Shown: positions 6,052 to 21,465, numbered from the stretch's first letter. The stretch is 64,000 bases of DNA from Saprospira grandis str. Lewin (GCF_000250635.1 NC_016940.1:1416995-1480994); one strand, 5' to 3'. The notes: generated by a model from the letters alone, not told the origin. Numbers and translations: made by a program.

Positions 6052-6540
6052 GGAGCCAATCCGAGATGTCCGTAGACCTCCGTGGCCGCCACGGAACCAA
6101 TCTGAGATGTCCGTAGCGCTCCGTGGCCACCACGGAGCTAATCTGAGATGTCCGTAGACCTCCGTGGCCGCCACGGAGCCAATCCGAGATGTCCGTAGAC
6201 CTCCGTGGCCGCCACGGAACCAATCCGAGATGTCCGTAGACCTCCGTGGCCGCCACGGAACCAATCCGAGATGTCCGTAGACCTCCGTGGCCGCCACGGA
6301 GCTAATCCGAGATGTCCGTAAGCCTCCGTGGCCGCCACGGAACCAATCCGAGATGTCCGTAGACCTCCGTGGCGGCCACGGAACCAATCCGAGATGTCCG
6401 TAGACCTCCGTGGCGGCCACGGAACCAATCTGAGATGTCCGTAGACCTCCCGTGGTGGCCACGGAACCAATCTGAGATGTCCGTAGACCTCCGTGGTGGC
6501 CACGGAACCAATCTGAGATGTCCGTAAGCTTCCGTGGCTC
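6052..6540. repeat. tandem repeat, 41-bp unit x about 12, each unit with a hairpin
   Basis: AACCAATCCGAGATGTCCGTAGACCTCCGTGGCCGCCACGG repeated head-to-tail with point variants. CCGTGG-CCG-CCACGG forms a 6-bp stem with a 3-nt loop. No unique spacers. Confidence 0.9.
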
Positions 6541-6715: not shown

Positions 6716-6895
6716 GGCCAGCCAATAACAACAACAGCGGCAAGCAGGCCCGAAGGGCCGCAGGCCTAGCGATGTGCAGCAGTGGCCGTCAGGCCAGACC
6801 CAGCCGCTGAAAGCGGCGCAGGGCCGAGCAGACTTGCGAGCTGCGGAACGTAGCGCCGACGAGCGCAGCGAGGCGGAGGCCCCCAAAAATCGCCC
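6716..6895 (-). repeat. dispersed GC-rich repeat, reverse orientation copy
   Basis: GGCCTAGCGATGTGCAGCAGTGGCC...GGCCAGACC...GGGCCGAGCAGACTTGCGAGCTGCGGAACGTAGCGCC...GGAGGCCCCCAAAAA. Confidence 0.75.
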
Positions 6896-6925
6896 TTATC
6901 CTCGGTTATTTTCTTCAGAAGTGCT

Positions 6926-8428: not shown

Positions 8429-8530
8429 AAATTGTTAGCTGTTGAGGCCCATTTTGGGCCATAAAATCAATTATTTTCTGTTTGTCGGCGGAAAATATAC
8501 GGAAGAGAATTTATAAATAAATAAAGCGAT

Positions 8531-9208
8531 ATGAATAGCTCGAAAAATAAGGTCAAGTTTTTGGCCCGCGCCTACTTTTTTCTCCTTCCTTGGAGTCGTC
8601 CTAAGAGATTATGGGCTTTGGCGGCCCTACTGCTCTTACTATTTCTGAGTTTTCAGTACCTCATTTCTCATTGGCAGGCTGCGCTGGGGCCATTGGCCTC
8701 TGGGGAGGAGCTGCAGTTGCTAGATGCTCATTTTGGCATTCGGGAAAAAGAGATAATTCCCTTGCTAGAGCATTTGGGCCCCTCCTATCGACAAGCGCAG
8801 AGCTACTTATATATTAGTCTAGACTTGATTTATCCGCTTGCTTATGGATTATTTTTTTCGGCCTGGCTACTTTTTCTGCTCCAAAACTCATTTCCTCGTT
8901 ATTTGGGCAGTCTTTATCAGGGCTGTTTTTTCCCTTTTTTGATCTCTATCACTGATCTTTTAGAAAATATATCTTTTATATTGTTGCTTTGGCGCTATCC
9001 TCGGCTTCCCGCTTGGCTTTGGTCCTTGGCCTCCTTTTTTAATCAGGCAAAATGGATTGGAGTCAACTTGCTGCTCATCTTCCTCCTCTTAGGATACATT
9101 GCTCGTTGGATGAACCGAGTAGAAGTGGCCGAATTTAAGGCCATGCAAAAGCGCTTTGGCTCAAAGAACTACAATCATTACACTAAAAAACAAGATCAAG
9201 ATGTCTAA
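8531..9208 (+). CDS. hypothetical integral membrane protein
   Basis: 225 aa with multiple hydrophobic helices and no recognisable motif. Confidence 0.45.
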   Translation: MNSSKNKVKFLARAYFFLLPWSRPKRLWALAALLLLLFLSFQYLISHWQAALGPLASGEELQLLDAHFGIREKEIIPLLEHLGPSYRQAQSYLYISLDLIYPLAYGLFFSAWLLFLLQNSFPRYLGSLYQGCFFPFLISITDLLENISFILLLWRYPRLPAWLWSLASFFNQAKWIGVNLLLIFLLLGYIARWMNRVEVAEFKAMQKRFGSKNYNHYTKKQDQDV

Positions 9209-9791
9209 GAACTTATTATGGGATACGGCCTTGGCCAAATTGAAAGCGGGAAACGACCGCTTTGTCAATGAACAAGCAGAAGGGAAAAAACAGGCCATGG
9301 ATCGCCGCCAAGAGCTCACTAAAGGGCAGGCGCCTTGGGCGATTATTTTGAGTTGTGCCGACTCTAGAGTGGTGCCCGAACTTGCCTTTGATACTGGCCT
9401 AGGCGAGCTCTTTGTTATTCGGGTAGCGGGCAATATTGCCAATACCTCTACCATTGCGAGTATTGAGTATGCCGTGGCCCACCTAGACGTCAATTTGATT
9501 GTGGTCATGGGCCACGAAAGCTGCGGAGCAGTTACGGCCGCCATGGCCGAGGGCGATGCAGAAAGCAATAACCTCAAGCATTTGTTGGACTATATTCAGC
9601 CGGCGCTTTCGGCCTGCCCCAACTGCCAAGATGTGAACGAAGTGGTTAAGAAAAATGCCGAACTAACGGCAGAAGCCCTAGCCGCCAACTCCAGCATCAT
9701 CCAAAATGAAATCCAGAATGGGGAGCTCAAGGTCTTTTCGGCCTACTACAACCTTTCTGATGGGCATGTAGACTTTTTTGAGGAGGCTTAG
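9201..9791 (+). CDS. beta-class carbonic anhydrase
   Basis: CADSRV...HESCGAV zinc-ligand motifs (Cys-Asp-Arg ... His-x-x-Cys). Start set to ATG 9201 (MSKNLLWD) rather than the track's 9156. Confidence 0.85.
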   Translation: MSKNLLWDTALAKLKAGNDRFVNEQAEGKKQAMDRRQELTKGQAPWAIILSCADSRVVPELAFDTGLGELFVIRVAGNIANTSTIASIEYAVAHLDVNLIVVMGHESCGAVTAAMAEGDAESNNLKHLLDYIQPALSACPNCQDVNEVVKKNAELTAEALAANSSIIQNEIQNGELKVFSAYYNLSDGHVDFFEEA

Positions 9792-9817
9792 GCCAAATTG
9801 AAAAGGGGAATAAAAAA

Positions 9818-9848
9818 CGCCAGCTCGACAAAAGCTGGCGTTTTTTTG
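9818..9848 (+). terminator. rho-independent terminator after the carbonic anhydrase gene
   Basis: CGCCAGC-tcgacaaaa-GCTGGCG followed by TTTTTTT. Confidence 0.6.
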
Positions 9849-9874
9849 TGGTCCTATATTATTCCTTTTTTGGG

Positions 9875-9935
9875 GCCCGCGGCCAGCTTTGCTGGCCGCC
9901 GCTATGCTGCGGGGCTCACTGTGCCGCTAATATCT
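9875..9935 (+). repeat. partial copy (terminal module) of the composite dispersed repeat
   Basis: TTTTTTGGGGCCCGCGGCCAGCTTTGCTGGCCGCCGCTATGCTGCGGGGCTCAC is identical to the start of the composite element at 11020 and to the reverse complement of the end of the element at 17660. Confidence 0.7.
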
Positions 9936-10857
9936 AACATGGGTATATTATTTTCTTTAACCCTTTCTTTTTGGATATACAAGGGCCAAGGACTAGGGGG
10001 CTACAGTCACAAATCTCTAATCTTTCTAAATTTTCGCATTTTAAATTAGACAAATCTGTACTAGTCGTCCCATCTCTATCAACCGTCCCAAACAAACTTA
10101 AAGACTTCAAATTGAGTTTATCTAGCCTTATTAGAGATAAAGGTATATTATAACAGCTTAACTTTTTCAAAAATCTAAGGTGGTGTATTTCTCTACAAAA
10201 ATCCAGATTTATTCTACCACCTCCACCTATAGATAAATCTATTTCTCTTAAATTAGGGAGGCGATCCAAAAAAGGTATACTATCTACATACATATAGCAT
10301 GAAGCTGAAAAACGCTCTAATGTGTCAGGGAGACAGATGTACCAATCTTTCAGAGATGGGAGGGAGCGTATTTCTAATTCTTTGAGTTTGTCTAATTCGA
10401 TAATTTCTTCAAAATTTTTCACAGAAGAACGTAGGGACAAGCTTTCTATAGCGCTCTGCTGTATCGCTTTAAAATCTATTCTGCTAAAAGATAAATGTAG
10501 TTTTTTTAGTGTACCTAGATCTTCTACAAAGCTAATATCTTCGGTTGTTGTCTCCAAATAGGATATATCTAAAGTCTCTAATTCTGAAGGAAATGAGGCC
10601 CTACTCAAAGGTATTTCAGTAAAACCTGTAAGTATCAAATACTTTATTTGGGGCAGTCGATCTAATAGATATAGTATAGATTCATTTTCTTCATATACGG
10701 TAAGTGAAATGGTTTCCAACCAATTCATTTTTGAAATTTCATCTAGTTGTTGCTCTGTTATTAGGTCTAACCACCCGCCTCCAAACTCCTCGCATAAAAA
10801 GAGACTTCCAGATCTTTCAATATTTTCCTCTTCGATTAAACCGTCGATATTGTCCAT
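9934..10857 (-). CDS. leucine-rich repeat (LRR) protein
   Basis: 307 aa. Repeated L..L.L....I..L..L segments (LETLDISYLETT, LKKLHLSFSRIDF, LKELEIRSLPSL, LREIDLSI). Strongly AT-rich coding region compared with neighbours. Confidence 0.65.
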   Translation of the reverse strand: MDNIDGLIEEENIERSGSLFLCEEFGGGWLDLITEQQLDEISKMNWLETISLTVYEENESILYLLDRLPQIKYLILTGFTEIPLSRASFPSELETLDISYLETTTEDISFVEDLGTLKKLHLSFSRIDFKAIQQSAIESLSLRSSVKNFEEIIELDKLKELEIRSLPSLKDWYICLPDTLERFSASCYMYVDSIPFLDRLPNLREIDLSIGGGGRINLDFCREIHHLRFLKKLSCYNIPLSLIRLDKLNLKSLSLFGTVDRDGTTSTDLSNLKCENLERLEICDCSPLVLGPCISKKKGLKKIIYPC

Positions 10858-11019
10858 GCAAATATTTTTAGTTAGATAATCCCATAAAGCTAAAAAAATA
10901 GTTTTTCATTTTTAGTAAAAAACTTTAAATCACAATTGCTCATGGCAAACAAAATTCTTGTTCTTAAATGAGTCGCGGACAGTAGTGGGAGGAGAATTGT
11001 TAAGCACCTATATTATTTT

Positions 11020-11560
11020 TTTTGGGGCCCGCGGCCAGCTTTGCTGGCCGCCGCTATGCTGCGGGGCTCACAGGCCTGTTCGGCCCTGCAGCCGCCTGCG
11101 GCGGCTTTGGTCTGGCCTGCGGCCACCCCTCCGCAGCGCTGGGCCGCTCATCAGGGCGGTTTAGCTTGGGCAGTTTGCTTTGGCCTTTTGGCCTTCCCTT
11201 TTAAGCGGTATTCGTCGCTGCGCTCCTCATTCGCCAATATGTCCCCGCCCACCCACCCCTCTGCGGGATTCCCTAAGGAATCCCTCGGGGAGGCGGGCAA
11301 CAAGCTAGCTGCAGACTTGGTCCAAGTTGCCTATAAGATGACGAAGCAATACCGCTCTTGCTGTAGGTGTTCACCTACAAGCACAGATAGCAGGCGGCAA
11401 AGCCGCCACAGGCTGAGGGGCTGTAGCAGGGCCGCCGAAGGCGGCAGACCAAGGCGCTTTGCGCCGAAGGGCCGAGCAGACCTGCGAGCTGCGCAATGGC
11501 CCGACCCGAAGGCCCAAAGGGCCGAAGGGGCAGCCCCAAAAAAAGAAACTACTTCCCCTC
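11020..11560 (+). repeat. composite dispersed repeat, about 540 bp (GC-rich repeat modules plus palindromic core), forward copy
   Basis: Near-identical to the reverse complement of 17150-17660. Contains the palindromes GTAGGTGAACACCTAC and GGGATTCCCTAAGGAATCCC. Overlaps the 3' end of the ketosynthase gene. Confidence 0.8.
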
Positions 11561-12835
11561 CCAACGGGCAAAAAGCAAACAACTATTCACATCCCCAAAG
11601 CCAAAACTCGCCTTGGCCATATAGCGCAAATCGGCCGCCTCCATTTGCAGGGGAATACAGGCGGCAGAAATCTGGGCCGCAATCTCGGGATGAAGATCTT
11701 CGGCATTTTTGCTGGGGTGCAAAAAGCCATGGACCAATTGCAAGACCACCGCCACCGACTCAATGGCGCCCGCCGCCGATAAACAATGACCAATCAAGGA
11801 TTTTAGGCTATTAATCTTAGGAAAATCATCGGCAGAGCGGCCCAAAGCCCGCAGCCAAGCCCCAATTTCGGCAGGGTCGCCCATGGTGGCCGTCAGATGG
11901 CCCGAAATAGCGTCTAGCTCCTGCGCAGCAATGCCCGCATCGGCCAAAGCCAAGCGAATACAGCGCTCAATCGCCTTGATATTGGGAGCCGTCATGCTGC
12001 CCCCCTGACGCTGACCGCCCGCATTTAAATGCCCCCCTTTTAGCTCGGCATAAATGTGCGCGCCCCTTGCTTGAGCCGAGGCCAAACTCTCTAAAACCAA
12101 TGCGCCAGCGCCACTGCCGGGCACAAAACCCGCCGCCTGCTCGCTCATTGGGCGAGAAGCCTGCTCTGGGCGGTCATTAAACTTGCGGCAAAGCACCCGC
12201 ATCGAATCAAAACCCGCCCAAATATATGGACCAGAACTGTTGCAGCTGCCGACCAGCATCCGCTCCGCTCGTCCCGACCGAATACGATCATAGCCCATTA
12301 ATATGGCCTCACTGCCCGTGCTGCAAGCCGCCGAATTAGAACTCAACTGATTGCCAAGGCCCAAAAAACCGCCCAAATAAGCGCTGATGCTGCTCTCCAT
12401 CGTCTGTTGAATCAAAGAAGAGCCAATGCGGCGGACCTTGCCCGCATCCACCTTATAAATTCCCTCTCGAACCACCTCAATACTAGACTGCCCGCCGCCA
12501 AAAATGCAGCCCGCCTCCCAATCGGGTTCCTCTTCCTTTTCAGAAATTGGCAAGGCGGCATCCTGCCAAGCCTCTAGGCCCGCCAAACAGCCATACATAA
12601 GGCCAGAGCCCTGAATATATCGCCTTTGTAAGGGCGTCAAAAAGCTATTAATGTACTCTTCGGTCAGCGGAGGGCTGCCTGCGACTCGACAAGCAAACTG
12701 TAGCTCCTCCAAATCTGGACGATAGCTAATTCCCGACTTTCCCGACTGCAAAGCGGCCAAAAAATCGGCCTTTCCCAAGGCGTTGGGAGCCACAACCCCC
12801 AAACCCGTAATCACGACTCTATTTTCCTGCATCAT
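11549..12835 (-). CDS. beta-ketoacyl-[ACP] synthase (FabF/FabB-like KAS I/II)
   Basis: 428 aa. Ketosynthase fold with active-site Cys in NSAACSTGSEA and downstream His motifs (HLTATMGDP; GHCLSAAG). Confidence 0.85.
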   Translation of the reverse strand: MMQENRVVITGLGVVAPNALGKADFLAALQSGKSGISYRPDLEELQFACRVAGSPPLTEEYINSFLTPLQRRYIQGSGLMYGCLAGLEAWQDAALPISEKEEEPDWEAGCIFGGGQSSIEVVREGIYKVDAGKVRRIGSSLIQQTMESSISAYLGGFLGLGNQLSSNSAACSTGSEAILMGYDRIRSGRAERMLVGSCNSSGPYIWAGFDSMRVLCRKFNDRPEQASRPMSEQAAGFVPGSGAGALVLESLASAQARGAHIYAELKGGHLNAGGQRQGGSMTAPNIKAIERCIRLALADAGIAAQELDAISGHLTATMGDPAEIGAWLRALGRSADDFPKINSLKSLIGHCLSAAGAIESVAVVLQLVHGFLHPSKNAEDLHPEIAAQISAACIPLQMEAADLRYMAKASFGFGDVNSCLLFARWEGK

Positions 12836-13280
12836 GGCTATTTTTTTTGGTCCACATTCCCGCTAATTCGGCCTTAGCGACCAGATCGCCAGCCTCATTA
12901 TAGGCTGAGGCCGTCACTCGAAGCTGTTGGAGACGAAATAATTTCTTTTTGGCCTCTACCCTCAGCAGCTCTCCAGGGCGATGGAGCTGGTAAAAATTCA
13001 CCTTAGAGCTACTAAAAGCAATTTTGGGGACCTCCTGCAGCTCCTCTTTCAATAAATAAATGCCTAGGCAAACCAGGCCAATTTGGGCCATGCACTCCAA
13101 GAGCAGCACCCCGGGCGTAATGGGGTCTTCGGGAAAATGGTCCGCATAAAAAGGGGCATCCTCTGCAAAGCGGTATTGGCCAATAACGCCCTCCTCATTC
13201 AGCTCCAACAACTCATCTACAAAGCAGAAGTTGGGACCATAGGGAAGCAAGGCCAAAATATCTTGATAGTTTTCTTTCAT
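12819..13280 (-). CDS. FabZ/FabA-like 3-hydroxyacyl-ACP dehydratase (hot-dog fold)
   Basis: 153 aa. HFPEDPITPGVLLLECMAQ matches the FabZ catalytic His / PGVL motif. Confidence 0.75.
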   Translation of the reverse strand: MKENYQDILALLPYGPNFCFVDELLELNEEGVIGQYRFAEDAPFYADHFPEDPITPGVLLLECMAQIGLVCLGIYLLKEELQEVPKIAFSSSKVNFYQLHRPGELLRVEAKKKLFRLQQLRVTASAYNEAGDLVAKAELAGMWTKKNSHDAGK

Positions 13281-13286
13281 CTTTTC

Positions 13287-14096
13287 TTAAATCAATCGTT
13301 CTCCCCCATCTACGGGGATAATAGCGCCATTAATCCAAGCCGATTCTGCTCGGCAAAGCAGCTCGATGACTTTGGCCACATCTTCGGCCTTAGTCATTCG
13401 GCCCAAGGGGTTTCGGCTTTTGGCAAATTGGGCCAAATCATCGCTGCCTGGAATCAGTTGAAAAGAGCGAGTATTCATCATGCCCGCCTGTACAATATTG
13501 GCTCGGATGCCCAGAGGCGCATACTCTAGGGCCATAGAACGGATGATAGCCTCTAGGGCCGTTTTGGCGGCAGATACAGCCGCATAATGGGACCAAGCCC
13601 GCTGGTTGCCGCCACTACTGAGGCCCAAAATTCGGGCATCTTCGGCAAAGCGGCCTAGAGCAATTAATCCCTGCGCCCAATCGACAATACTATAGGCCAT
13701 ATTTTGGGCCGTGAGCTGAAAATCAGTACTCGTCAAATTATTCTGTCCTAAAAAAGCCTTGAGATTTCCCTTGGCAATACTATGCAGCAACAGCCGAAAA
13801 CGCGCCTCAGCAGGCAGGCGTTCCGAGAGCTCGGCCAAAGAGCGAGCAATTTGCTCCTTCTGCGTAGCATCCACATTATAATGCAAAATGCTTACGCCCG
13901 TTTCTAGGGACAAGGCCTGAAAACGAGCTTGGGCCTCTCGGGCATCGGCTCGCCTTTCTCGATAATAAATGCAAAGCGACATGCCCTTTTTGGCCAGTAC
14001 TTGAGCCGCAGCCCAACCTAATCCAGAAGAGCCCCCTAAAATGAGCCCCCAAAGTTCTTTTTCCTTATACATGGGTTTACTAATTTTCTGGGGCAA
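13287..14096 (-). CDS. FabI-like enoyl-ACP reductase (SDR with Y-x6-K)
   Basis: 269 aa. Gly-rich NAD(P)-binding N-terminus. SHYAAVSAAK gives Tyr-x6-Lys spacing, typical of FabI rather than a classical YxxxK ketoreductase. Confidence 0.65.
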   Translation of the reverse strand: MPQKISKPMYKEKELWGLILGGSSGLGWAAAQVLAKKGMSLCIYYRERRADAREAQARFQALSLETGVSILHYNVDATQKEQIARSLAELSERLPAEARFRLLLHSIAKGNLKAFLGQNNLTSTDFQLTAQNMAYSIVDWAQGLIALGRFAEDARILGLSSGGNQRAWSHYAAVSAAKTALEAIIRSMALEYAPLGIRANIVQAGMMNTRSFQLIPGSDDLAQFAKSRNPLGRMTKAEDVAKVIELLCRAESAWINGAIIPVDGGERLI

Positions 14097-14099
14097 AGC

Positions 14100-15158
14100 C
14101 TACTCCCAATTTAATAATAGCCGCTGGGCCGAAAAGCCTGGGCCAAAGCTAAGCATTAGGCCCTTTTCGCCTGCGGCAATCTCCTTTTCTAGATAGCGCT
14201 CGAGCACATAAAGCACCGTGGCCGAAGACATATTGCCATAAAGGCGCAAGACCTCCTTGGTCTCCTCGATATTTTTGCCCAAATCGGCAAAAAGGCCCTC
14301 TACCATCTGTACAATCTTTTTGCCGCCAGGATGAAAAATCAAATGCTCAATCTCTTCGATCGTCAAGCCATTCTTTTCAATAAATGGGAAGAGGACCGAT
14401 TTAAAATGTCGCTCAATTTTATTGGGCACTTCCTTGTCCAAAATCATTTGAAGGCCCGTATTGCGCAGCTTGAAGCCCATCATATCAATTTCGTCATAAA
14501 AATGATACATTTCTCCTGCAATAATGGCGGGTTTTAGCTCCTCAGAGGGCCCCAAAATGGTACAAACCGCTCCATCGCCAAAGATGGCCGCACTGACCAT
14601 ATTGACCATACTCATATCATCCTGCTGAAAGGTAGCCGTAGGCGACTCAAAAGCGACGATAGCCGCCCGCTTACCCGGATTGGCCAAAAGCAGATTATAG
14701 GCATAAATCAAAGCGGAGGTTCCCCCCGCACAGCCCATTTCCGTTACGGGCAAACGCATAATATCTTGGCGCATTCTCAGCGCATTAATCAAGTAGGCAT
14801 CTATAGAGGGAATCATAATGCCCGTACAGCTCACACTAATGATAATATCGATATCTGTAGGCTGCAAATTGGCTTTTTTGAGGGCCCCTTCTACGGCTTG
14901 CTGCGTCAGTAGGGTATATTCCTCGGCATAGCGGGCATTTTTTTCTTCAAAAGAAGTTTGCTGAAACACCTCTTCGATATCCATAATAGAATAGCGGCGA
15001 TCTACCTGCGCATAGCGAAAAATACGCTCCACCTTACGGCGAAAGCGTTCGTCTTGGCCCTTGGCCTGCAGCCAAAGATCGATATAGGGTAAAATATCTG
15101 CTGTAGATCTAGAATAGGGCGGCAGGGCCTTATGTGTGGAAAGTATTTTTATAGACAA
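14100..15158 (-). CDS. type III polyketide synthase (chalcone/stilbene synthase superfamily)
   Basis: 352 aa. Catalytic triad motifs MGCAGG (Cys), FHPGG (His) and GNMSSATV (Asn), plus C-terminal GFGPGFS. Confidence 0.8.
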   Translation of the reverse strand: MSIKILSTHKALPPYSRSTADILPYIDLWLQAKGQDERFRRKVERIFRYAQVDRRYSIMDIEEVFQQTSFEEKNARYAEEYTLLTQQAVEGALKKANLQPTDIDIIISVSCTGIMIPSIDAYLINALRMRQDIMRLPVTEMGCAGGTSALIYAYNLLLANPGKRAAIVAFESPTATFQQDDMSMVNMVSAAIFGDGAVCTILGPSEELKPAIIAGEMYHFYDEIDMMGFKLRNTGLQMILDKEVPNKIERHFKSVLFPFIEKNGLTIEEIEHLIFHPGGKKIVQMVEGLFADLGKNIEETKEVLRLYGNMSSATVLYVLERYLEKEIAAGEKGLMLSFGPGFSAQRLLLNWE

Positions 15159-15297
15159 GGGAGTGTATTTTAAGTTTTTTGGGGTAAGCGATTTTTAAAA
15201 TACGAGAAAAAATAGGCTATGGAGTTATTTGCCTGCTTTTTTATCTTTCTTCAAATGGAATCACTTCCTTAAATTAAGGCCCAATAAAAACCAAATC

Positions 15298-16203
15298 ATG
15301 CCATTACATCAAAAAACGGCCTGCCGAAAACAATGGGGATTATCTCAGCGGAGCGGGCAAAATATTTACTACAAACTAGACTGTCAGCAGCCTTCGGGCT
15401 CCTTTAAAATTCGGGGCATTGGCCATTATGCCGAGCAGCTGAAGGCCCAAGGGGTCTTGTCTTTAGTTATTGCCTCTGGCGGAAATGCGGGTTTGGCAGT
15501 GGCCTATGCGGCCCAAGCCTTGCAGCTCAAGGCCAAGGTGGTTTTGCCCCTAAGCAGCTCCCTCTTTGTCGAGCAGTTGCTGCTTGACCTTGGCGCTAAG
15601 GTCTACCGCTCTGGCGAAAGCTGGGCCGAGGCCCAAACATTGGCCCTAGAACTAGCCCAGGCGCCCCAAGCAACCTATATCCCTCCCTTCGATCATCCGA
15701 TGCTTTGGGAAGGCCATAGCAGTTTGGTGGAGGAGTTGGCCGAGCAATTGCCGCAAGCGCCCGATCTCATTTTGCTATCTGTAGGAGGTGGAGGCCTTTT
15801 TAAGGGCGTGATGCAGGGCTTAGCAGCCCATGACTGGCCCACTAAGGTATTGTGTTTGGAGACGGAAGGTACGGCCTCCCTGCATCAGTCTTTGGCGGCG
15901 GGTCGACAAATTGAGTTGGCTAAAATTGAGGGCATAGCCAGCAGCTTAGGCGCCAAAAAGATTGCTCAAGCAGCTTGGGAGGCGGCCCAATCGCCCCAAG
16001 TGTATAGTCGAGTTTTGCCTGATGAGCAGGCCCTCTGGGGCGTGAAGCAACTCTTGTCCGAAACAGGACATTTGACCGAGCCTGCCTGCGGGCTGGTCCG
16101 AGCGGCCTTGGTCCAAGACTGGCCCGAAATTCAAGCTGCAAAACATATTGTGGCCATTATTTGCGGCGGAAGAACGATGCCGATAGAACAACTAAGCCTC
16201 TAA
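15298..16203 (+). CDS. PLP-dependent serine/threonine dehydratase family enzyme (fold type II)
   Basis: PSGSFKIRG lysine-PLP signature and a glycine-rich GGGG loop. Start moved from 15229 to ATG 15298 (MPLHQK). Confidence 0.7.
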   Translation: MPLHQKTACRKQWGLSQRSGQNIYYKLDCQQPSGSFKIRGIGHYAEQLKAQGVLSLVIASGGNAGLAVAYAAQALQLKAKVVLPLSSSLFVEQLLLDLGAKVYRSGESWAEAQTLALELAQAPQATYIPPFDHPMLWEGHSSLVEELAEQLPQAPDLILLSVGGGGLFKGVMQGLAAHDWPTKVLCLETEGTASLHQSLAAGRQIELAKIEGIASSLGAKKIAQAAWEAAQSPQVYSRVLPDEQALWGVKQLLSETGHLTEPACGLVRAALVQDWPEIQAAKHIVAIICGGRTMPIEQLSL

Positions 16204-16206
16204 ATT

Positions 16207-17136
16207 ATGATTATCTACAAGCCTTCGGGCTCTTTCTTCAGAGACATTCGCCATTTTAATCGCACAGCGGTCATTAGACGGCTGATTGCTTATGTGTTGT
16301 TTTATGGCTTGGCGGTGGCCGCTTTGGCGGCTCTATTCCTCTGGGCCGATTGGTCCAAATACCTGAAATTAGACGGACTGAGCAGCATTTTCTCCTTTCT
16401 GGGGGTGGTTTTGAGCATCCTTTTGGTTTTTCGGACCAATACAGCCTATGACCGTTGGTGGGAGGGCCGCAAGCAATGGGGTGCCTTGGTCAATCACAGT
16501 AGAAATTTGGCCATTGTGGGACAGGTTTGCTTTCCCGAAGAGAATAAGGCCCTTCGTCATCGTTTGGCCCTGCTGATCAGCAATTTTTGTCTGGCCTTTA
16601 AGGAGCATTTGCGGGAGGGGGTGCGTTTGGAGGAGCTGATTGAATTGACTGCCAGAGATCGGCAGTTGTATGCGGAGCAGCAGCATTTGCCCGCCTATAT
16701 TTCGGCCCAAATTCAGCAGTTGGTGGTGCAGGCCTACCGTCGTGGCGAAATCCGGGAGCTGGACCAGCTCAATTTTAAGCCGCACACCCAAGCCCTGCTA
16801 GATGTTTTGGGGGCCTGCGAACGCATCAAGAAAACGCCCATTCCCTTTTCTTATGAGATTTTTCTGCGGCTCTTTATTGTTTGCTATGCCCTGATTTTGC
16901 CCTTTGTGATTTTGCCCAGTTTTGGCTTTTGGGGCCTGCCTGTGCTGATGCTGATTCTCTTTGCTTTTTTGGGCCTAGAGCTCATGGCGGCCGAGATTCA
17001 GGACCCTTTTGGCCGAGATTGCAACGACCTCCCTACGGGCGATATGGCCCATACTATTCGCAAGAATGTTTTTGAGATTTTAGAGGCCAAGCATGAAAAA
17101 GGAAGTCTGACTAGCAATTATAGTAAGTTGTCTTAG
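16207..17136 (+). CDS. bestrophin/UPF0187 family anion channel
   Basis: 309 aa. VFRTNTAYDRWWEGRKQWG is the bestrophin-family signature; 4 TM helices. Begins 3 nt after the previous gene. Confidence 0.85.
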   Translation: MIIYKPSGSFFRDIRHFNRTAVIRRLIAYVLFYGLAVAALAALFLWADWSKYLKLDGLSSIFSFLGVVLSILLVFRTNTAYDRWWEGRKQWGALVNHSRNLAIVGQVCFPEENKALRHRLALLISNFCLAFKEHLREGVRLEELIELTARDRQLYAEQQHLPAYISAQIQQLVVQAYRRGEIRELDQLNFKPHTQALLDVLGACERIKKTPIPFSYEIFLRLFIVCYALILPFVILPSFGFWGLPVLMLILFAFLGLELMAAEIQDPFGRDCNDLPTGDMAHTIRKNVFEILEAKHEKGSLTSNYSKLS

Positions 17137-17149
17137 GAGGAGGATTTGG

Positions 17150-17660
17150 GGCTGCCCCTTCGGCCCTTTGGGCCTTCGGGTCGGGCTCTGTCGCAGCTCG
17201 CAGGTCTGCTCGGCCCTGCGCCGCCAAGGGCGGCTGGGTCTGGCCCTTTGGGCCACTGCTATCCATCCCTCAGCCTGCGGCGGCTTTGCCGCCTGCTATC
17301 TGTGCTTGTAGGTGAACACCTACAGCAAGAGCGGTATTGCTGCGCAAGCTTATAGGCAACTTGGACCAAGTCTGCAGCTAGCTTGTTGCCCGCCTCCCCG
17401 AGGGATTCCTTAGGGAATCCCGCAGAGGGGTGGGTGGGCGGGGACATATAAACGAATGAGGAGCGCAGCGACGAATACCGCTTAAAAGGGAAGGCCAAAA
17501 GGCCGAAGCCTAAAGATTTGAAGCAACAAAAAAAGTGGAGCGGCCCAGCGCTGCGGAGGGGTGGCCGAAGGCCAGACCGAGCTTTTGAGCAAAGCGAAAA
17601 AGCGAAGGGCCGAACAGGCCTGTGAGCCCCGCAGCATAGCGGCGGCCAGCAAAGCTGGCC
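17150..17660 (-). repeat. composite dispersed repeat, about 510 bp, inverted copy of 11020-11560
   Basis: Reverse complement matches 11020-11560 module for module (GGGATTCCTTAGGGAATCCC, GTAGGTGAACACCTAC, terminal GGCCAGCAAAGCTGGCCGCGGGCCCCAAAAAAAA). Confidence 0.8.
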
Positions 17661-17798
17661 GCGGGCCCCAAAAAAAAATAAAAAAATCTTACGCTCCTAA
17701 ATAGCTGATAAAAAACAACTTAGTCGGCGATTAAAAAATAAATGCAGAAAAAAAGCGGCTAAAAATGAAAAAAGATTTGCGAGATCCAAAAAGCTGCC

Positions 17799-17807
17799 TT
17801 ATATTTG
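17799..17807 (+). promoter_or_regulatory. putative Bacteroidota -7 promoter box (TAnnTTTG) for tRNA-Leu
   Basis: TTATATTTG lies 19 nt upstream of the mature tRNA 5' end. Confidence 0.35.
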
Positions 17808-17825
17808 CAACGTCGAAAATGATAA

Positions 17826-17910
17826 GCGGATGTGGTGAAATTGGTAGACACGCTAGACTTAGGATCTAGTGCCGCAAGGTGTGTGGGTTCGAGTCCCTCC
17901 ATCCGCACCA
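17826..17910 (+). tRNA. tRNA-Leu (anticodon TAG), with encoded CCA
   Basis: GCGGATG acceptor stem pairs with CATCCGC. Anticodon loop CTTAGGA, long variable arm (type II), T-loop GGTTCGAGTCC, 3' CCA; 85 nt. Confidence 0.9.
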
Positions 17911-17921
17911 ATTTAGAAAGT

Positions 17922-17953
17922 GCAAATTCTGATGGGATTTGCGCTTTTTTTTT
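17922..17953 (+). terminator. rho-independent terminator after tRNA-Leu
   Basis: GCAAAT-tctgatggg-ATTTGC followed by GCTTTTTTTTT. Confidence 0.55.
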
Positions 17954-18080
17954 GTGCAAAACCAAAGATCGGCCTTAAATCTATGCCTAGAATTAAGACA
18001 ACTTCAGTATCTTTGGGCCACTTTTGGGGAAAATCCCTAAAATTAAGATTTGATTATTAAGTTATTAAAGACTAGACACG

Positions 18081-19484
18081 ATGCCAGTTGCAACGCATAC
18101 GTTTAATGAGGGGGAGCAGACCGTAGTGCTGCACCTGCAGATTGCCAAGAATGAATACATGAGCTTGGTGGATAAGAAGCTAAAGGAAGTTCGTAAAAAC
18201 TTTCAGCAGCCCGGTTTCCGCCCCGGCAAAGCCCCTATGGGCCTATTGCGTAAGAAGTTTGGGAATGAAATCCTTTGGGATGAGGTAAACAAGCTTTTGG
18301 ACCAAGAAGTACGTGCTTTCATCCAAGAAAAAGAACTCAAGGTATTGGGTAACCCCATGCCTCAGAATAGCCTAGAAACCAACATCAACAAACCTGTAGA
18401 TGTACAACTAGATATTGAGATTGGTTATATGCCCAAGCAAGAGATTGCTGGCATTAGCGAAGAAACCGCTTTTCCTTTCTACAAAGTAGAAATGAGCGAA
18501 ACAGAACTAGCTGAAGAGATCGAGGCACAGCGCAAGCAGCGTAGCCAAGACCTAAGCGAAGATGCTACCGATATTCAAGACAACGATCTTTTGGAAATCA
18601 AAGTAGTGGCTAACAATGAGGGAGCTTGGACCAATGAGTCGACTATGGTGGCTATGGACAAAGCTACTGCTGATGTACAAGCTCAACTCAAAGCCATTGA
18701 GGTAGGTGGAAGCATCGTTTGCAAATTGTCTGATTTGGATACCGCCCTCACGGCAGAGCGTCGTATGGGCATGTTCTTCCCCGAAGTAGAAACAGAAGAG
18801 GAAGACGTAGAAGTAACCGTTGAAGTACTCAAAGTAAAGCGTCAGATTCCTCGCGAATTGAATGAGGAATTCTTTGCTGAGCTTTTCCCTGAGGATGAAA
18901 TCAAAACAGAAGAAGAATTTAAGGCCAAATTTGCTGAAATGGTGAGCGAGCAATTTGCTCCCGCCGCTAAGAGCATCTTCTTCCGCTATGTTTATGAGGA
19001 GTTGATGGAGAAAAACAACTTTGACCTTCCTGAGAAATTCTTGCGCAAATGGCTAGAAGAAAGCCGTGAAGAAAAGCAAGAAGAAGTAAATGACGATAAC
19101 TTTGCCGACTTTATGCGTCGTCTACGTTGGTCTTTGATCATCGATCAACTCACTAACGAGCACAATGTAGAAGTAAGCAAAGAAGAAGTAGAGCATGCTA
19201 TCCGTATGGCTATCGCTCGTCAGTACAACTTCCAGATTCCTCCTTACCACCCCATCATGGACAGCCAAATCGAGAACTTGATGAAGGATGAGGCTACTGT
19301 TCGTCAGTTTGGAGAGCAAGTACAAGAACAAAAAGTATTTGATGCACTCCTTCCCCTCTTTGGCAAAGCCGAAGAAACTGTAGACGCCGCCAAATTTGAC
19401 GAAATCTACAAGGCTCGCTTCGAGCAAAACGAAGAAGCTACAGAAGAAGTAGTGGAAGAAGTAGAAGCCGAAGAAGCAGAATAA
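18081..19484 (+). CDS. tig: trigger factor (ribosome-associated chaperone / PPIase)
   Basis: 467 aa. N-terminal GFRPGKAP ribosome-binding signature (GFRxGxxP) and a highly acidic C-terminal tail. Confidence 0.9.
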   Translation: MPVATHTFNEGEQTVVLHLQIAKNEYMSLVDKKLKEVRKNFQQPGFRPGKAPMGLLRKKFGNEILWDEVNKLLDQEVRAFIQEKELKVLGNPMPQNSLETNINKPVDVQLDIEIGYMPKQEIAGISEETAFPFYKVEMSETELAEEIEAQRKQRSQDLSEDATDIQDNDLLEIKVVANNEGAWTNESTMVAMDKATADVQAQLKAIEVGGSIVCKLSDLDTALTAERRMGMFFPEVETEEEDVEVTVEVLKVKRQIPRELNEEFFAELFPEDEIKTEEEFKAKFAEMVSEQFAPAAKSIFFRYVYEELMEKNNFDLPEKFLRKWLEESREEKQEEVNDDNFADFMRRLRWSLIIDQLTNEHNVEVSKEEVEHAIRMAIARQYNFQIPPYHPIMDSQIENLMKDEATVRQFGEQVQEQKVFDALLPLFGKAEETVDAAKFDEIYKARFEQNEEATEEVVEEVEAEEAE

Positions 19485-19520
19485 CTACTGTCACATATAT
19501 AGGCCAAGGCCTAAAGCTAA

Positions 19521-19557
19521 GAGCAGAACTACGAAATGTAGTTCTGCTCTTTTTTTA
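19521..19557 (+). terminator. rho-independent terminator after tig
   Basis: GAGCAGAACTAC-gaaat-GTAGTTCTGCTC followed by TTTTTTT. Confidence 0.7.
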
Positions 19558-19740
19558 TCTAAATGTTAAAATGCATTGATAAAATGTTAATAAATAGGGT
19601 ACCTTATTGCAAAAAGCTAAAAATCAGCCCTTTTTATTTTGAACATTTAAACAATATCTTAATTTTGTACTTATAAAAAGTACTGTTGCATTTACAGCAG
19701 TAGAACTCCACGACCATGCCCCCTCATAAAACAAACTGCT

Positions 19741-20076
19741 ATGCCTACACCAGTCAACAAAAGTTATCATTTTTCTGATCAGGAAACTGAGATTCAGTTT
19801 CAGTTTAAAGACCTGCGCAAAATTGTTTTAGATCTTCGTGCCCTTAATCATGAGCTGAGGCAAAAAATTGTTCAGCTGCTTTTAGCCAATGGACCAATGA
19901 CTGTCACCCAACTCTACGTTAAGCTAAGAATTGAGCAATCTGTGGCCTCTCAGCATTTGGCGATTCTTAGAAAAGCCAATATTGTTGTGGCCGAAAGAGA
20001 AGGTAAGTTTATTCATTACCACATCCATCAAGAACAACTAGAAGCCGTCAAAGCACTGCTTTTGGGCCTACAGTAA
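19741..20076 (+). CDS. ArsR/SmtB-family HTH transcriptional regulator
   Basis: 111 aa. Winged-helix pattern LRALNHELRQKIVQLL...QSVASQHLAILRKANIVVAEREGK. A possible TAATTTTG -7 box sits at about 19660. Confidence 0.7.
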   Translation: MPTPVNKSYHFSDQETEIQFQFKDLRKIVLDLRALNHELRQKIVQLLLANGPMTVTQLYVKLRIEQSVASQHLAILRKANIVVAEREGKFIHYHIHQEQLEAVKALLLGLQ

Positions 20077-20164: not shown

Positions 20165-21465
20165 AAATTTGGTCAATAGAGACTAGGAGGCGAGTGGTAA
20201 AATTTAGATGACCCGGTCAGGGAAACAGACACAAAGCTGGCTGAAAACTTTGGTCCAACCAGCTCGTTTGACCTTCCATCGTTTTTGAATTTGCATAGCG
20301 GCTAAATAGATAGATTTTATGGCCGCAGCATCATTTGGAAATGAGCGTTTGTTATTGGTATATTTTCTCAGGCCAGCATTAAAGCCTTCAATAATATTTG
20401 TGGTATAAATAAGCTTTCTGATTTCTTGAGGATAGTATAAAAAGACAGTGAGATTGTCCCAGTTTTTCTCCCAAGATTTAATGATGTAAGGATAGCGATC
20501 ACCCCATTTTTCTTCAAAATCTTGAAGCCGATTTCTGGCCTCAGCTTCATTAGGAGCTGTATAAATGAGCTTAATATCTTTGGCCACTTTTCTTCTATTA
20601 GAGGCTTCAACAACCTTCATAGAATTGCGAATTTGATGGACCACACAAATTTGATGAGCTGCCTGAGGAAAGACGGCCTCAACGCTTTGGTCCAAGCCAG
20701 CTAGATTGTCTGAGCAGATAAATAAAACATCCTTTACCCCTCTTGTTTTAATGTCATTCAAAGTTGTAGCCCAATTTGCAGCAGTCTCTTTTTCAAAGAG
20801 ATACATGCCAATAATGTCTTGGTAGCCTGCTAAATTAACCCCAAGGACAATCATGCAAACCTTGCTCTTAATCTGCCCATCTTCTCTAATTTTATAGTGA
20901 ATCCCATCAATCCAAAGAATCGCATATTTCTCATCAAGAACCCGATTTTGCCACTCTCGAATACTATCTAAGAGGCTATTAGTAATGGTTGTAATTTGAC
21001 TCTTAGAGTACTGCTGCCCATAAATTTCATCCATATACTCTACTATATCAGACAGGCTCATACCTTTAGCATACAATAGTGTAATCACACTCTCCAGCTT
21101 AGCCGTCATCGACTTGTGTTTGGGGACCGTTACAGGGTCAAATTTACCCTCTCGATCTCTTGGTATTTCTATTTGTAATTTGCCACTTTCCGTCTTGATC
21201 TTCTTTGAAGAATGGCCATTTCTGCGATTTTCTCCTTGGACTTCTTCGCCACGAGCATACCCTAAATGCGCTGACATTTCTCCTTCTAACAAACTTTGAA
21301 TTCCTCGTTTTTTGAGGTCATCTGTTAGCTTGTCTAGCTCCTCAATGTTCTTCACATCTCCTAGTAGGCGGTTTAATAACTCTTCTTGTTTCTTGTCCAT
21401 AGCGGTACTTTTTTTCTAAGTAATTAAATTGATATTAAACCTCCTAATCTTTACCCCTTTTTTTG
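20165..21465 (-). mobile_element. IS256-family insertion sequence (boundaries approximate)
   Basis: A single mutator-type transposase gene flanked by imperfect terminal inverted repeats (GACTAGGAGG... at the left end; reverse complement GATTAGGAGG... at the right end). AT-rich compared with flanks. Confidence 0.6.
20204..21400 (-). CDS. IS256-family (mutator-type) transposase
   Basis: 398 aa with the typical IS256 transposase architecture (DxxH, CVVHQIRNS, D/E-rich catalytic core). Confidence 0.85.
   Translation of the reverse strand: MDKKQEELLNRLLGDVKNIEELDKLTDDLKKRGIQSLLEGEMSAHLGYARGEEVQGENRRNGHSSKKIKTESGKLQIEIPRDREGKFDPVTVPKHKSMTAKLESVITLLYAKGMSLSDIVEYMDEIYGQQYSKSQITTITNSLLDSIREWQNRVLDEKYAILWIDGIHYKIREDGQIKSKVCMIVLGVNLAGYQDIIGMYLFEKETAANWATTLNDIKTRGVKDVLFICSDNLAGLDQSVEAVFPQAAHQICVVHQIRNSMKVVEASNRRKVAKDIKLIYTAPNEAEARNRLQDFEEKWGDRYPYIIKSWEKNWDNLTVFLYYPQEIRKLIYTTNIIEGFNAGLRKYTNNKRSFPNDAAAIKSIYLAAMQIQKRWKVKRAGWTKVFSQLCVCFPDRVI

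What the first reader, a model, noticed from the sequence alone, without database searches (positions are those of the whole stretch)
11020..17660. Type III PKS cluster with a private FabF/FabZ/FabI-like fatty-acyl module, bracketed by inverted copies of a 500-bp composite repeat
Four minus-strand genes with 3-17-nt spacing look like one operon: type III polyketide synthase (Cys/His/Asn motifs visible), FabI-like Y-x6-K enoyl reductase, FabZ-like dehydratase and FabF-like ketosynthase. Divergently transcribed are a PLP-dependent dehydratase-family enzyme and a bestrophin channel. A dedicated KS/DH/ER set beside a type III PKS suggests on-site synthesis of an unusual fatty-acyl starter for an alkylresorcinol- or alkylpyrone-type phenolic lipid. 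This follows the ars/srs logic of Azotobacter and Streptomyces, but with discrete type-II-like enzymes and no ACP or KR visible. The whole 5.6-kb block is flanked by two near-identical, oppositely oriented composite repeats (11020-11560 and 17150-17660), which looks like a mobilisable or recombinogenic cassette.
Basis: partly seen in the sequence, partly recalled or inferred. Interest (0 to 1): 0.75.

Follow-up and report, generated by a model that had tools for sequence, protein, structure and literature searches.

The report
Invertible type III polyketide lipid cluster
This is a real but stripped-down Saprospira grandis copy of a type III polyketide synthase plus fatty-acid-elongation gene cluster found across the Bacteroidota, probably making a phenolic lipid, and its flanking inverted repeats have flipped the six-gene block in a sister strain.

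Summary
Window 11549-15158 (-) carries an intact operon: type III PKS, FabL-like enoyl reductase, FabZ-like dehydratase and FabF-like ketosynthase. A PLP enzyme and a bestrophin are transcribed divergently. Inverted ~530-nt repeats flank the block at 11016-11548 and 17145-17677.

The organism is Saprospira grandis (Lewin-like). The cluster is not unusual for the phylum. In 80 other Bacteroidota genomes the same PKS sits in a conserved array: FAD-monooxygenase, methyltransferase, PKS, (reductase), dehydratase, ketosynthase, ACP, (PPTase). Saprospira has lost the monooxygenase, methyltransferase, ACP and PPTase. Its four remaining genes are under strong purifying selection (dN/dS 0.03-0.07). The PLP enzyme and bestrophin are not conserved partners.

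The most likely product is an untailored alkylresorcinol or alkylpyrone lipid whose acyl starter is elongated on site. This is inferred, not shown.

The repeat ends belong to a dispersed hairpin-rich intergenic family, with about 18 sites in 64 kb. I found no evidence of mobility, because the block sits at one locus in all genomes examined. The repeats are recombinogenic, however: in Saprospira sp. CCB-QB6 the whole block is inverted between collinear flanks.

Verdict: partly supported, moderate interest.

The parts
14100..15158 (-). Type III polyketide synthase, 352 aa. Catalytic Cys143/His276/Asn309 and an SFGPGF loop.
   Evidence: Pfam Chal_sti_synt_N 67.5 bits and Chal_sti_synt_C 72.5 bits, against a cut-off of 27. 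The FabH models fail: TIGR00747 scores 59.9 against 292. All of the best 60 PDB hits listed are type III PKSs, led by M. tuberculosis Pks11 at 168 bits over the full length. The triad is invariant in alignment A2.
13287..14096 (-). FabL-like SDR enoyl reductase, 269 aa (261 aa from the start at 14072). Motifs GGSSGLG and Y-x6-K (YAAVSAAK).
   Evidence: adh_short_C2 151 bits. Best NCBIfam hit is FabL at 135 bits, against 86 for FabG, but below the cut-off of 328. Best PDB hit is B. subtilis FabL 3oic, followed by 2,4-dienoyl-CoA reductase.
12819..13280 (-). FabZ/ApeI-like 3-hydroxyacyl dehydratase, 153 aa, with the HFPxxPxxPGV...E motif.
   Evidence: Pfam FabA 47.7 bits. NCBIfam FabZ 64 bits, against cut-offs of 113-155. 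PDB FabZ hits. Precomputed ApeI-like/ApeP-like hits.
11549..12835 (-). FabF/FabB-like elongating ketosynthase, 428 aa. Cys (AACSTG) and two His (SGHLTAT, IGHCLSAAG) motifs are visible.
   Evidence: ketoacyl-synt N 91.5 bits and C 86.6 bits. NCBIfam fabF 255 bits against a cut-off of 494. PDB KAS I/II hits.
15159..15297 (.). AT-rich divergent intergenic region between the PKS operon and the PLP/bestrophin pair. Presumed divergent promoters.
   Evidence: Sequence read directly. Gene-call starts. Inferred only: the sigma-70 consensus scan was uninformative.
15298..16203 (+). PLP-dependent serine/threonine-dehydratase-family enzyme. Part of the invertible block but not of the conserved cluster.
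   Evidence: PALP 217.8 bits. PRK08246 180 bits against a cut-off of 331. Absent near the PKS in 62 of 62 other genomes.
16207..17136 (+). Bacterial bestrophin-family channel. Part of the invertible block but not of the conserved cluster.
   Evidence: Bestrophin_2 239.6 bits. A homologue sits next to the cluster only in Chitinophaga pinensis. 0 of 62 in the genome survey.
11016..11548 (.). KS-side composite repeat. Outer 'A' end TTTTTTGGGGCCCGCGGCCAGC..., long core, inner 'B' end ...GGGGCAGCCCCAAA. It starts about 10 nt after the KS stop codon.
17145..17677 (.). Bestrophin-side composite repeat, inverted relative to the KS-side copy. It starts about 9 nt after the bestrophin stop codon.
11177..11419 (.). 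243-nt core, with a second copy at 17267-17509 (96% identical). About 145 nt of it is an extra structured insert. That insert is found on the KS side in all three genomes where the KS side was read, and on the bestrophin side only in the Lewin-like window.
   Evidence: I1. Folding z-scores -3.4 and -4.4. No Rfam match. Alignment A4.
9866..9919 (.). Third, partial copy of the outer 'A' end, 54 nt and 100% identical. It is a direct repeat of 11018-11071 across the LRR gene.
   Evidence: (D2).
9934..10857 (-). Strain-variable leucine-rich-repeat gene (GC 33%) inserted between carbonic anhydrase and the KS-side repeat.
   Evidence: Present in CP110854.1. Absent in CCB-QB6 and DSM 2844.
17826..17910 (+). 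tRNA-Leu(TAG). A fixed right-hand flank of the invertible block.

Best explanation
The window comes from Saprospira grandis (Lewin-like).

**The operon.** Genes 11549-15158(-) form one operon that most likely makes a phenolic lipid.
- The FabF-like KS, FabZ-like DH and FabL-like ER add C2 units to an ordinary fatty acyl thioester. The ketoreduction step is borrowed from housekeeping FabG. The acyl carrier is encoded elsewhere, most simply AcpP.
- The type III PKS takes that acyl chain as its starter, condenses it with malonyl-CoA units and cyclises the product to a 5-alkylresorcinol or alkylpyrone.
- Saprospira lacks the methyltransferase and FAD-monooxygenase that precede the PKS in other Bacteroidota, so its product would stay untailored.

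**The block.** The six genes, including an unrelated PLP-enzyme/bestrophin pair, sit between two inverted copies of a hairpin-rich intergenic repeat. Homologous recombination in the outer repeat modules inverts the block, and gene conversion keeps the two copies similar. The block is not mobile.

**What is shown.**
- Enzyme families and catalytic motifs.
- Conserved synteny.
- Purifying selection.
- The inversion.

**What is inferred.**
- Product class.
- Order of steps.
- Carrier and KR source.
- Recombination mechanism.
For: **Enzyme identities.**

**Organism.** The window's proteins are identical to S. grandis str. Lewin entries AFC24137, 39, 41 and 44.

**Spread of the PKS family.** 7133 homologues have E<=1e-10. 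At least 574 species genomes carry one.

**Synteny in 80 genomes, same strand, adjacent:**

| Gene | Present / assessable |
|---|---|
| Methyltransferase | 80/80 |
| FAD-monooxygenase | 76/76 |
| DH | 74/76 |
| KS | 71/72 |
| ACP | 67/68 |
| PPTase | 52/66 |
| SDR | 50/79 |

The 84-aa protein is an ACP: PP-binding scores 22.4 against a cut-off of 20.8, and the NCBIfam ACP model gives E 2e-9.

**Closest solved PKS structures.** These are long-chain-acyl or alkylresorcinol-forming enzymes, Pks11 and CylI.

**Selection.** dN/dS between the window and a relative with dS 0.4-1.2:

| Gene | dN/dS |
|---|---|
| PKS | 0.027 |
| SDR | 0.067 |
| DH | 0.047 |
| KS | 0.058 |
| Trigger factor (comparison) | 0.034 |

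**Inversion.**
- Window 6750-9919 and 17145-20043 align collinearly with CCB-QB6.
- Window 11013-17343 aligns to CCB-QB6 in reverse.
- The long core stays on the KS side while the outer flank swaps, so the breakpoints lie in the outer A modules.
- Inverted repeat pairs flank the block in CP110854.1, CCB-QB6 and DSM 2844.
Against: - No product has been measured.
- No ACP, KR, acyltransferase or PPTase is present in the window (tblastn), nor within +/-10 kb in two other Saprospira genomes. How acyl chains are carried and handed to the PKS is therefore open.
- Resorcinol versus pyrone cyclisation cannot be read from the sequence.
- Close relatives of this PKS (73-79% identity) lack DH and KS altogether. 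The module is therefore dispensable for PKS function and its exact role is uncertain.
- I could not search the rest of the S. grandis genome for housekeeping fab genes or an orphan cluster-type ACP.
- Inversion by RecA-type recombination is inferred from the breakpoints alone.
Confidence: 0.6

Rival explanations
1. The order of steps is reversed. The type III PKS acts as a priming enzyme that builds a small aromatic or beta-keto starter, and the KS/DH/ER then elongate it on an ACP. The product would be an omega-substituted fatty acid rather than an alkylresorcinol.
For: The DH has ApeI/ApeP-like hits, as in aryl-polyene pathways where a ring is built first and then extended. The best NCBIfam hit for the PKS is DpgA, which uses a malonyl starter.
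Against: The DpgA score is 148 against a cut-off of 425. The nearest solved enzymes are long-chain-acyl-primed (Pks11) or alkylresorcinol-forming (CylI). No aryl-activating ligase or KR is present. Type III PKS products are released as free acids or rings, not as thioesters ready for elongation (general knowledge, not tested here).
Confidence: 0.1
2. The Saprospira cluster is a decaying remnant. Having lost the ACP, PPTase, methyltransferase and monooxygenase, it no longer makes a product.
For: Four of the eight canonical genes are missing. Repeats occupy the position of the ACP gene.
Against: All four ORFs are intact with catalytic motifs. dN/dS is 0.03-0.07 at dS 0.4-1.2, comparable with trigger factor. 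The same four-gene set is kept in the window and four other Saprospira sequences.
Confidence: 0.07
3. The KS, DH and ER are the organism's housekeeping type II fatty-acid-synthesis genes and only happen to lie beside a type III PKS.
For: GenBank names the SDR 'enoyl-ACP reductase FabI' in some records. The rest of the genome was not searched.
Against: All three score far below the NCBIfam equivalog cut-offs: fabF 255 against 494, fabZ 64 against 113-155, FabI about 78 against 337, FabL 135 against 328. Their orthologues travel with the PKS in more than 70 genomes, and the SDR is missing from 29 of 79 such clusters. There is no FabD/FabG/FabH/AcpP neighbourhood.
Confidence: 0.03
4. The block is a mobile cassette or genomic island delimited by the repeats and inserted next to tRNA-Leu.
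For: Inverted terminal repeats flank the block and a tRNA gene is adjacent. Neighbouring content varies between strains: the LRR gene and an IS256 copy.
Against: No transposase, integrase or recombinase lies in or beside the block. The block sits at the same locus, between carbonic anhydrase and tRNA-Leu/trigger factor, in every Saprospira sequence where both sides could be read. Its GC content matches the surroundings. The repeat ends occur at about 18 other intergenic sites. The nearest PKS relatives have divergent cluster architectures, and their taxonomy was not established.
Confidence: 0.05

Closest known systems
Azotobacter vinelandii ars operon (ArsA/ArsD fatty acid synthase plus ArsB/ArsC type III PKSs; cited in PMC3098273, refs 12 and 36)
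   Same: A dedicated fatty-acyl-building module is encoded next to a type III PKS. It is presumed to hand a long acyl starter to the PKS for alkylresorcinol or alkylpyrone lipids.
   Different: Ars uses two large multidomain type I FAS proteins with their own ACP and KR. Here the enzymes are discrete type II-like proteins (KS, DH, ER). There is no KR anywhere in the family and no ACP in Saprospira. There is one PKS rather than two.
Streptomyces griseus srsABC-type operons (type III PKS, methyltransferase, flavin hydroxylase). Recalled from my own knowledge, not tested by sequence here.
   Same: The canonical Bacteroidota array has the same trio of FAD-monooxygenase, methyltransferase and PKS, immediately upstream of and including the PKS.
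   Different: Saprospira lacks both tailoring genes. srs operons have no private KS/DH/ER/ACP. Homology of the Bacteroidota methyltransferase and monooxygenase to SrsB and SrsC was not tested.
Canonical Bacteroidota type III PKS cluster, which antiSMASH surveys count as 'T3PKS' (9-11% of Flavobacteriaceae BGCs; PMC7440613, PMC10734526)
   Same: Orthologous PKS (65-68% identity), SDR, DH and KS in the same order and on the same strand.
   Different: Saprospira has lost the FAD-monooxygenase, methyltransferase, ACP and PPTase. It has gained divergent PLP-enzyme and bestrophin neighbours and flanking inverted repeats. The papers I could search assign no product to this cluster.
Mycobacterium tuberculosis Pks11 (PDB 4jao)
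   Same: Closest solved structure. The alignment is full length, 168 bits, with the same Cys/His/Asn triad. The depositors call it an alpha-pyrone synthesis PKS; long-chain acyl priming is my own knowledge.
   Different: Roughly one-third identity. The genomic context is different.
REP/REPIN/BIME-type dispersed intergenic palindromic repeats, and repeat-mediated chromosomal inversions
   Same: The repeats are multicopy, strictly intergenic and hairpin-forming. Each element is itself an imperfect palindrome. Inverted copies have recombined to flip the DNA between them.
   Different: The elements are much longer (340-540 nt) and modular. They have conserved linkers and variable but always self-complementary hairpins. 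No RAYT-type transposase was looked for.

Membership tests
Type III polyketide synthase (chalcone/stilbene synthase superfamily) | Both Chal_sti_synt N- and C-terminal domains score above the Pfam gathering score | tested here: met
   67.5 and 72.5 bits against a cut-off of 27
Type III polyketide synthase (chalcone/stilbene synthase superfamily) | Cys-His-Asn catalytic triad and the GFGPG-type loop | tested here: met
   C143, H276 and N309 are invariant in 14 homologues, and the SFGPGF loop is present. They align to the Pks11 triad.
Type III polyketide synthase (chalcone/stilbene synthase superfamily) | Closer to solved type III PKSs than to FabH | tested here: met
   All of the best 60 PDB hits listed are type III PKSs. 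FabH models score 60-74 bits against cut-offs of 249-292.
Alkylresorcinol/alkylpyrone synthase (ArsB/ArsC, SrsA, Pks11 type) | Uses a long-chain fatty acyl starter and releases a resorcinol or pyrone | not testable with these tools
   Only indirect evidence: the nearest structures are Pks11 and CylI, and JGI automatically labels several homologues 'alkylresorcinol/alkylpyrone synthase'.
DpgA (3,5-dihydroxyphenylacetyl-CoA synthase) | Passes the NCBIfam equivalog cut-off and has DpgB/C/D neighbours | tested here: not met
   147.7 bits against 425. No enoyl-CoA-hydratase-type neighbours.
srs-type operon (PKS + methyltransferase + flavin hydroxylase) | Methyltransferase and FAD-monooxygenase genes adjacent to the PKS | tested here: not met
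   Absent from the window and from the other Saprospira loci. Present in 80/80 and 76/76 other Bacteroidota genomes.
ars-type coupling (dedicated FAS feeding a type III PKS) | Dedicated KS, DH and ER encoded with the PKS | tested here: met
   Linkage is conserved in more than 70 genomes.
ars-type coupling (dedicated FAS feeding a type III PKS) | Own ACP and KR, with a multidomain type I architecture | tested here: not met
   No ACP in the window. No KR in any locus. The proteins are discrete. An ACP is present in the canonical cluster (67/68).
Housekeeping type II FAS (FabF, FabZ, FabI/FabL) | Passes the NCBIfam equivalog cut-offs | tested here: not met
   fabF 255 against 494. fabZ 64 against 113-155. 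FabL 135 against 328. FabI 78 against 337.
Housekeeping type II FAS (FabF, FabZ, FabI/FabL) | Is the only such gene set in the genome | not tested
   Only 64 kb of the genome was available. There are no paralogues in the window.
Enoyl-ACP reductase of the FabL/FabI SDR type | Y-x6-K catalytic motif rather than the Y-x3-K of ketoreductases | tested here: met
   YAAVSAAK read from the translation. Best PDB hit is FabL 3oic.
Mobile cassette / composite transposon / genomic island | Carries a transposase or integrase and occurs at different genomic sites | tested here: not met
   No such gene in the block or its flanks. The locus is the same in the four genomes where both flanks were read. The L010 contig ends at the KS gene.
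Repeat-mediated invertible segment | Flanking inverted repeats, with both orientations found between collinear flanks | tested here: met
   (inverted repeat pairs). (inverted in CCB-QB6). (breakpoints in the outer modules).
Programmed (site-specific) inverton | Adjacent invertase or recombinase, short inverted repeats, and a promoter that switches | tested here: not met
   No recombinase within +/-10 kb. The inverted repeats are about 500 nt. The promoters lie inside the block.
REP/REPIN-like dispersed repeats | Many intergenic hairpin-forming copies | tested here: met
   About 18 intergenic sites in 64 kb. 16 linker-hairpin-linker units, all perfect hairpins.
REP/REPIN-like dispersed repeats | An associated RAYT (IS200/IS605-like) transposase in the genome | not tested
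   The whole genome was not available.

The most novel reading that the evidence does not exclude
The Bacteroidota-wide array (FAD-monooxygenase, methyltransferase, type III PKS, ER, DH, KS, ACP) may encode an undescribed family of methoxylated alkyl-resorcinol or quinone lipids. They would be made by a direct hand-off from a discrete type II elongation module to a type III PKS. Saprospira's ACP-less, tailoring-less version would then be the minimal natural system, showing that the module can run on the housekeeping carrier. Separately, the block may flip within populations through a new kind of dispersed modular hairpin repeat, whose stems vary freely but always stay self-complementary.
Probability: 0.3. 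Interest if true: 0.6.

Novelty: new variant of a known kind. Interest (0 to 1): 0.38.

Why it matters
Type III PKS clusters make up about a tenth of all predicted biosynthetic clusters in Flavobacteriaceae, yet the literature I could search assigns them no product. This analysis gives three things.
- It defines the conserved eight-gene architecture.
- It identifies a naturally reduced four-gene version that is still under selection. That version is a compact target for expression and lipid analysis, and a test of how a discrete KS/DH/ER set feeds a type III PKS without its own carrier protein.
- The inversion is a clean, checkable example of intergenic repeats reshaping a biosynthetic locus. 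It is also a warning that short-read assemblies break exactly at these repeats.

Tried and rejected
- **Tyrosine ammonia-lyase link.** The aromatic ammonia-lyase at 6926-8428 passes the HutH equivalog (600 against 539) and fails FlxA TAL (325 against 700). It is ordinary histidase, so a coumaroyl starter is not indicated.
- **Hidden ACP, methyltransferase, monooxygenase or PPTase in the window.** tblastn with the Chitinophaga and Owenweeksia proteins and E. coli AcpP found nothing credible.
- **Known RNA in the repeat core.** No Rfam family matched at gathering score or at E<=1 beyond noise.
- **Copies of the core elsewhere.** An exact 22-mer scan of metagenome contigs gave 0 hits. A metagenome search with the PKS returned only one close relative, already in hand.
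- **Repeats as intrinsic terminators or sigma-70 promoters.** Counts were no higher than in shuffled sequence.
- **PLP enzyme and bestrophin as cluster members.** Rejected, 0 of 62 genomes.
- **Literature.** Seven searches found surveys that count these clusters. None gave a product assignment or described the Saprospira repeats.
- **Not attempted.** A database search for an orphan cluster-type ACP in S. grandis. The output could not be limited to one genome and would probably have been inconclusive.

Full report

Yes. The ORF list shows four tightly packed minus-strand genes:
- KS 11549-12835.
- DH 12819-13280.
- SDR 13287-14096.
- PKS 14100-15158.

Their gaps are 3 nt, 6 nt and a 17-nt overlap. 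Two plus-strand genes are transcribed divergently. One is a PLP enzyme, whose ORF starts at 15229 but which gene callers start at 15298. The other is a bestrophin at 16207-17136. A 139-nt AT-rich spacer separates the PKS from the PLP gene.

Inverted repeats lie at 11016-11548 and 17145-17677. The outer 72 nt are 100% identical, a 243-nt core is 96% identical and the inner 87 nt are 91% identical, giving 87-89% overall. Each repeat begins about 10 nt after the stop codon of the outermost gene of the block.

**2. What are the genes?**

*The 352-aa protein is a type III PKS.*
- Both chalcone/stilbene-synthase Pfam domains pass their cut-offs.
- FabH models fail by a wide margin.
- Cys143, His276 and Asn309 and the SFGPGF loop are invariant across homologues.
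- All of the best 60 PDB hits listed are type III PKSs. The best is M. tuberculosis Pks11, aligned end to end, followed by THNS and CylI.

*The SDR is a C=C reductase rather than a ketoreductase.*
- It carries Y-x6-K (YAAVSAAK).
- It is closest to FabL in both NCBIfam and the PDB (3oic), followed by 2,4-dienoyl-CoA reductase.

*The DH and KS look catalytically competent.*
- The DH has the FabZ His/Glu motif.
- The KS has the Cys and two His motifs of an elongating KAS I/II.

None of the three passes the housekeeping equivalog cut-offs: fabF 255 against 494, fabZ 64 against 113-155, FabL 135 against 328.

The window's proteins are identical to Saprospira grandis str. Lewin entries.

**3. How common is this cluster?**

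Very common. The PKS has 7133 homologues at E<=1e-10, about 65-68% identical across Flavobacteriales, Chitinophagales and other Bacteroidota. A capped scan of species-representative genomes found at least 574 carriers.

In the 80 loci fetched, tblastn with the neighbouring proteins shows a fixed co-directional array:

| Gene | Present / assessable |
|---|---|
| FAD-monooxygenase | 76/76 |
| Methyltransferase | 80/80 |
| FabL-like SDR | 50/79 (absent from the Flavobacterium, Tenacibaculum and Pedobacter loci and most Polaribacter loci) |
| DH | 74/76 |
| KS | 71/72 |
| 84-aa ACP | 67/68 (confirmed as PP-binding) |
| PPTase | 52/66 |

Saprospira keeps only PKS-SDR-DH-KS. No homologue of the other four genes occurs in the 64-kb window or within +/-10 kb in three other Saprospira genomes.

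The PLP enzyme and bestrophin accompany the PKS only in Saprospira. Bestrophin is also adjacent in Chitinophaga pinensis, but the count elsewhere is 0 of 62.

The architecture is plastic among the PKS's closest relatives, whose taxonomy was not established. Relatives at 73-79% identity have methyltransferase-PKS-SDR without DH or KS. One relative at 70% identity has the full set with an ACP.

**4. Is the reduced cluster alive?**

Yes, by selection. Compared with a metagenomic relative at dS 0.4-1.2, dN/dS is 0.027 for the PKS, 0.067 for the SDR, 0.047 for the DH and 0.058 for the KS. Trigger factor next door gives 0.034.

**5. Most likely mechanism.**

By analogy with dedicated-FAS/type III PKS systems, and given the Pks11/CylI-like PKS, the KS, DH and ER probably elongate an ordinary fatty acyl chain. 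The keto-reduction would come from FabG, and the carrier would be encoded elsewhere, most simply AcpP. The PKS would then prime with that chain, add malonyl units and cyclise to an alkylresorcinol or alkylpyrone. Without the methyltransferase and monooxygenase the Saprospira product would remain untailored.

The enzyme identities, linkage and selection are shown. The product class, order of steps, carrier and KR source are inferred.

**6. The repeats.**

Their end modules are not specific to this locus. BLAST and repeat searches find them at about 18 strictly intergenic sites in the window. Each element is itself an imperfect palindrome with the layout outer 'A' end, core, inner 'B' end. It is built from conserved linkers separated by variable hairpins. 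The unit GCTCGGCCCT-insert-GGTCTG occurs 16 times with at least 9 different inserts. Every insert is a perfect hairpin, with mean MFE -9.2 against -3.4 for shuffled inserts, and the pattern gives no hits in shuffled windows.

Only the 243-nt core is confined to the two flanking copies. It folds strongly (z -3.4 and -4.4) but matches no Rfam family.

**7. Are the repeats a cassette boundary?**

They are not a mobile one. In S. grandis CP110854.1, DSM 2844 and Saprospira sp. CCB-QB6, the block lies between carbonic anhydrase and tRNA-Leu/trigger factor. In the metagenomic relative, the one readable side also abuts tRNA-Leu/trigger factor. No transposase or recombinase is present. An inverted repeat pair flanks the block in each of the three genomes.

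In CCB-QB6, however, the block is inverted:
- Window 6750-9919 and 17145-20043 align collinearly with CCB-QB6.
- Window 11013-17343 aligns in reverse.
- The gene order confirms this.

An alignment of seven repeat copies shows that the extra ~145-nt core insert stays on the KS side in every genome where that side was read. Only the outermost flank changes partner. This places the breakpoints in the near-identical outer A modules.

Mosaic sharing of hairpin variants points to recurrent gene conversion between the two arms. Examples are 193 nt at 96% identity in CP110854.1 and the long core on both sides only in the Lewin-like window. Both transcription units start inside the block, so inversion should not rewire expression. 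I read it as repeat-mediated homologous recombination, not a programmed switch.

**8. Comparison with known systems, and novelty.**

In logic the cluster resembles ars (a dedicated FAS feeding a type III PKS). In its canonical form it also resembles srs (PKS, methyltransferase and flavin hydroxylase). It is not a member of either as defined:
- The enzymes are discrete and type II-like.
- There is no KR in any locus.
- Saprospira has no ACP or tailoring genes.

Surveys already count these clusters as 'T3PKS', at 9-11% of Flavobacteriaceae BGCs (PMC7440613, PMC10734526). Seven literature searches found no product assignment.

I therefore rate it a new variant of a known kind, of moderate interest. 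Its impression of an unusual, self-contained, possibly mobile cassette was not. The 'recombinogenic' suggestion turned out to be correct.

Noticed in passing
window 3161-3252, 6763-6889, 23593-23930, 31877-31971, 35257-35355, 37235-37359, 40788-40934, 41787-41934, 44700-44874, 46662-46841, 50410-50810, 55899-56020, 58415-58481, 61398-61499, 62252-62559: A dispersed, strictly intergenic, GC-rich modular repeat family. Conserved linkers are separated by variable inserts that are always perfect hairpins: 16 units with at least 9 different stems. There is no Rfam match, and I found no description in the papers searched. It may be a new REPIN-like element class.
   Followed up: partly
window 9853-11071 (LRR gene 9934-10857): A low-GC (33%) leucine-rich-repeat gene is bracketed by direct, 100% identical copies of about 54-67 nt of the repeat's outer end. 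The gene is present in S. grandis Lewin and CP110854.1 but absent in DSM 2844 and CCB-QB6. It looks like a recent insertion at the repeat.
   Followed up: partly
window 20204-21400 (-): An IS256/Mutator-family transposase (Pfam PF00872, 364 bits). The segment containing it (about window 20.1-21.5 kb) has no counterpart in the three other Saprospira sequences compared by BLAST, so it is a strain-specific IS copy.
   Followed up: partly
window 40788-41931: An uncharacterised 202-aa ORF (40998-41606, no Pfam hit) is bracketed by inverted copies of the same repeat's inner module (110 nt, 94%). It is a second candidate invertible segment.
   Followed up: no
window 5966-6532 and 61885-62115: Tandem repeats of 41 nt (10 copies, overlapping a 457-aa ORF with no Pfam hit) and of 21 nt (8 copies). 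The 41-nt array aligns at several offsets to CCB-QB6, which suggests that copy number varies.
   Followed up: no
L007 5107-6024 (Chitinophaga pinensis) and window 16207-17136: A bestrophin-family gene lies beside the type III PKS cluster in two distant lineages, Saprospira and C. pinensis, but in none of 62 other genomes. This may be coincidence or a weak functional link.
   Followed up: partly
loci L020, L023, L032, L035, L036, L039, L043, L045-L047, L049, L053, L055, L056, L059-L061, L065, L068, L070, L073, L075, L078, L079, L083, L084, L087, L090: In the Flavobacterium, Tenacibaculum and Pedobacter loci and most Polaribacter loci, the cluster lacks the FabL-like reductase while keeping DH, KS and ACP. 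The reductase is therefore an optional part of the module, and its absence may give unsaturated chains.
   Followed up: no
L002-L004, L125 (Logan short-read contigs): Independent short-read assemblies of S. grandis give contigs of about 5.65 kb that end exactly inside the two flanking repeats. The repeats break assemblies, so the orientation of this block in draft genomes should be treated with care.
   Followed up: no
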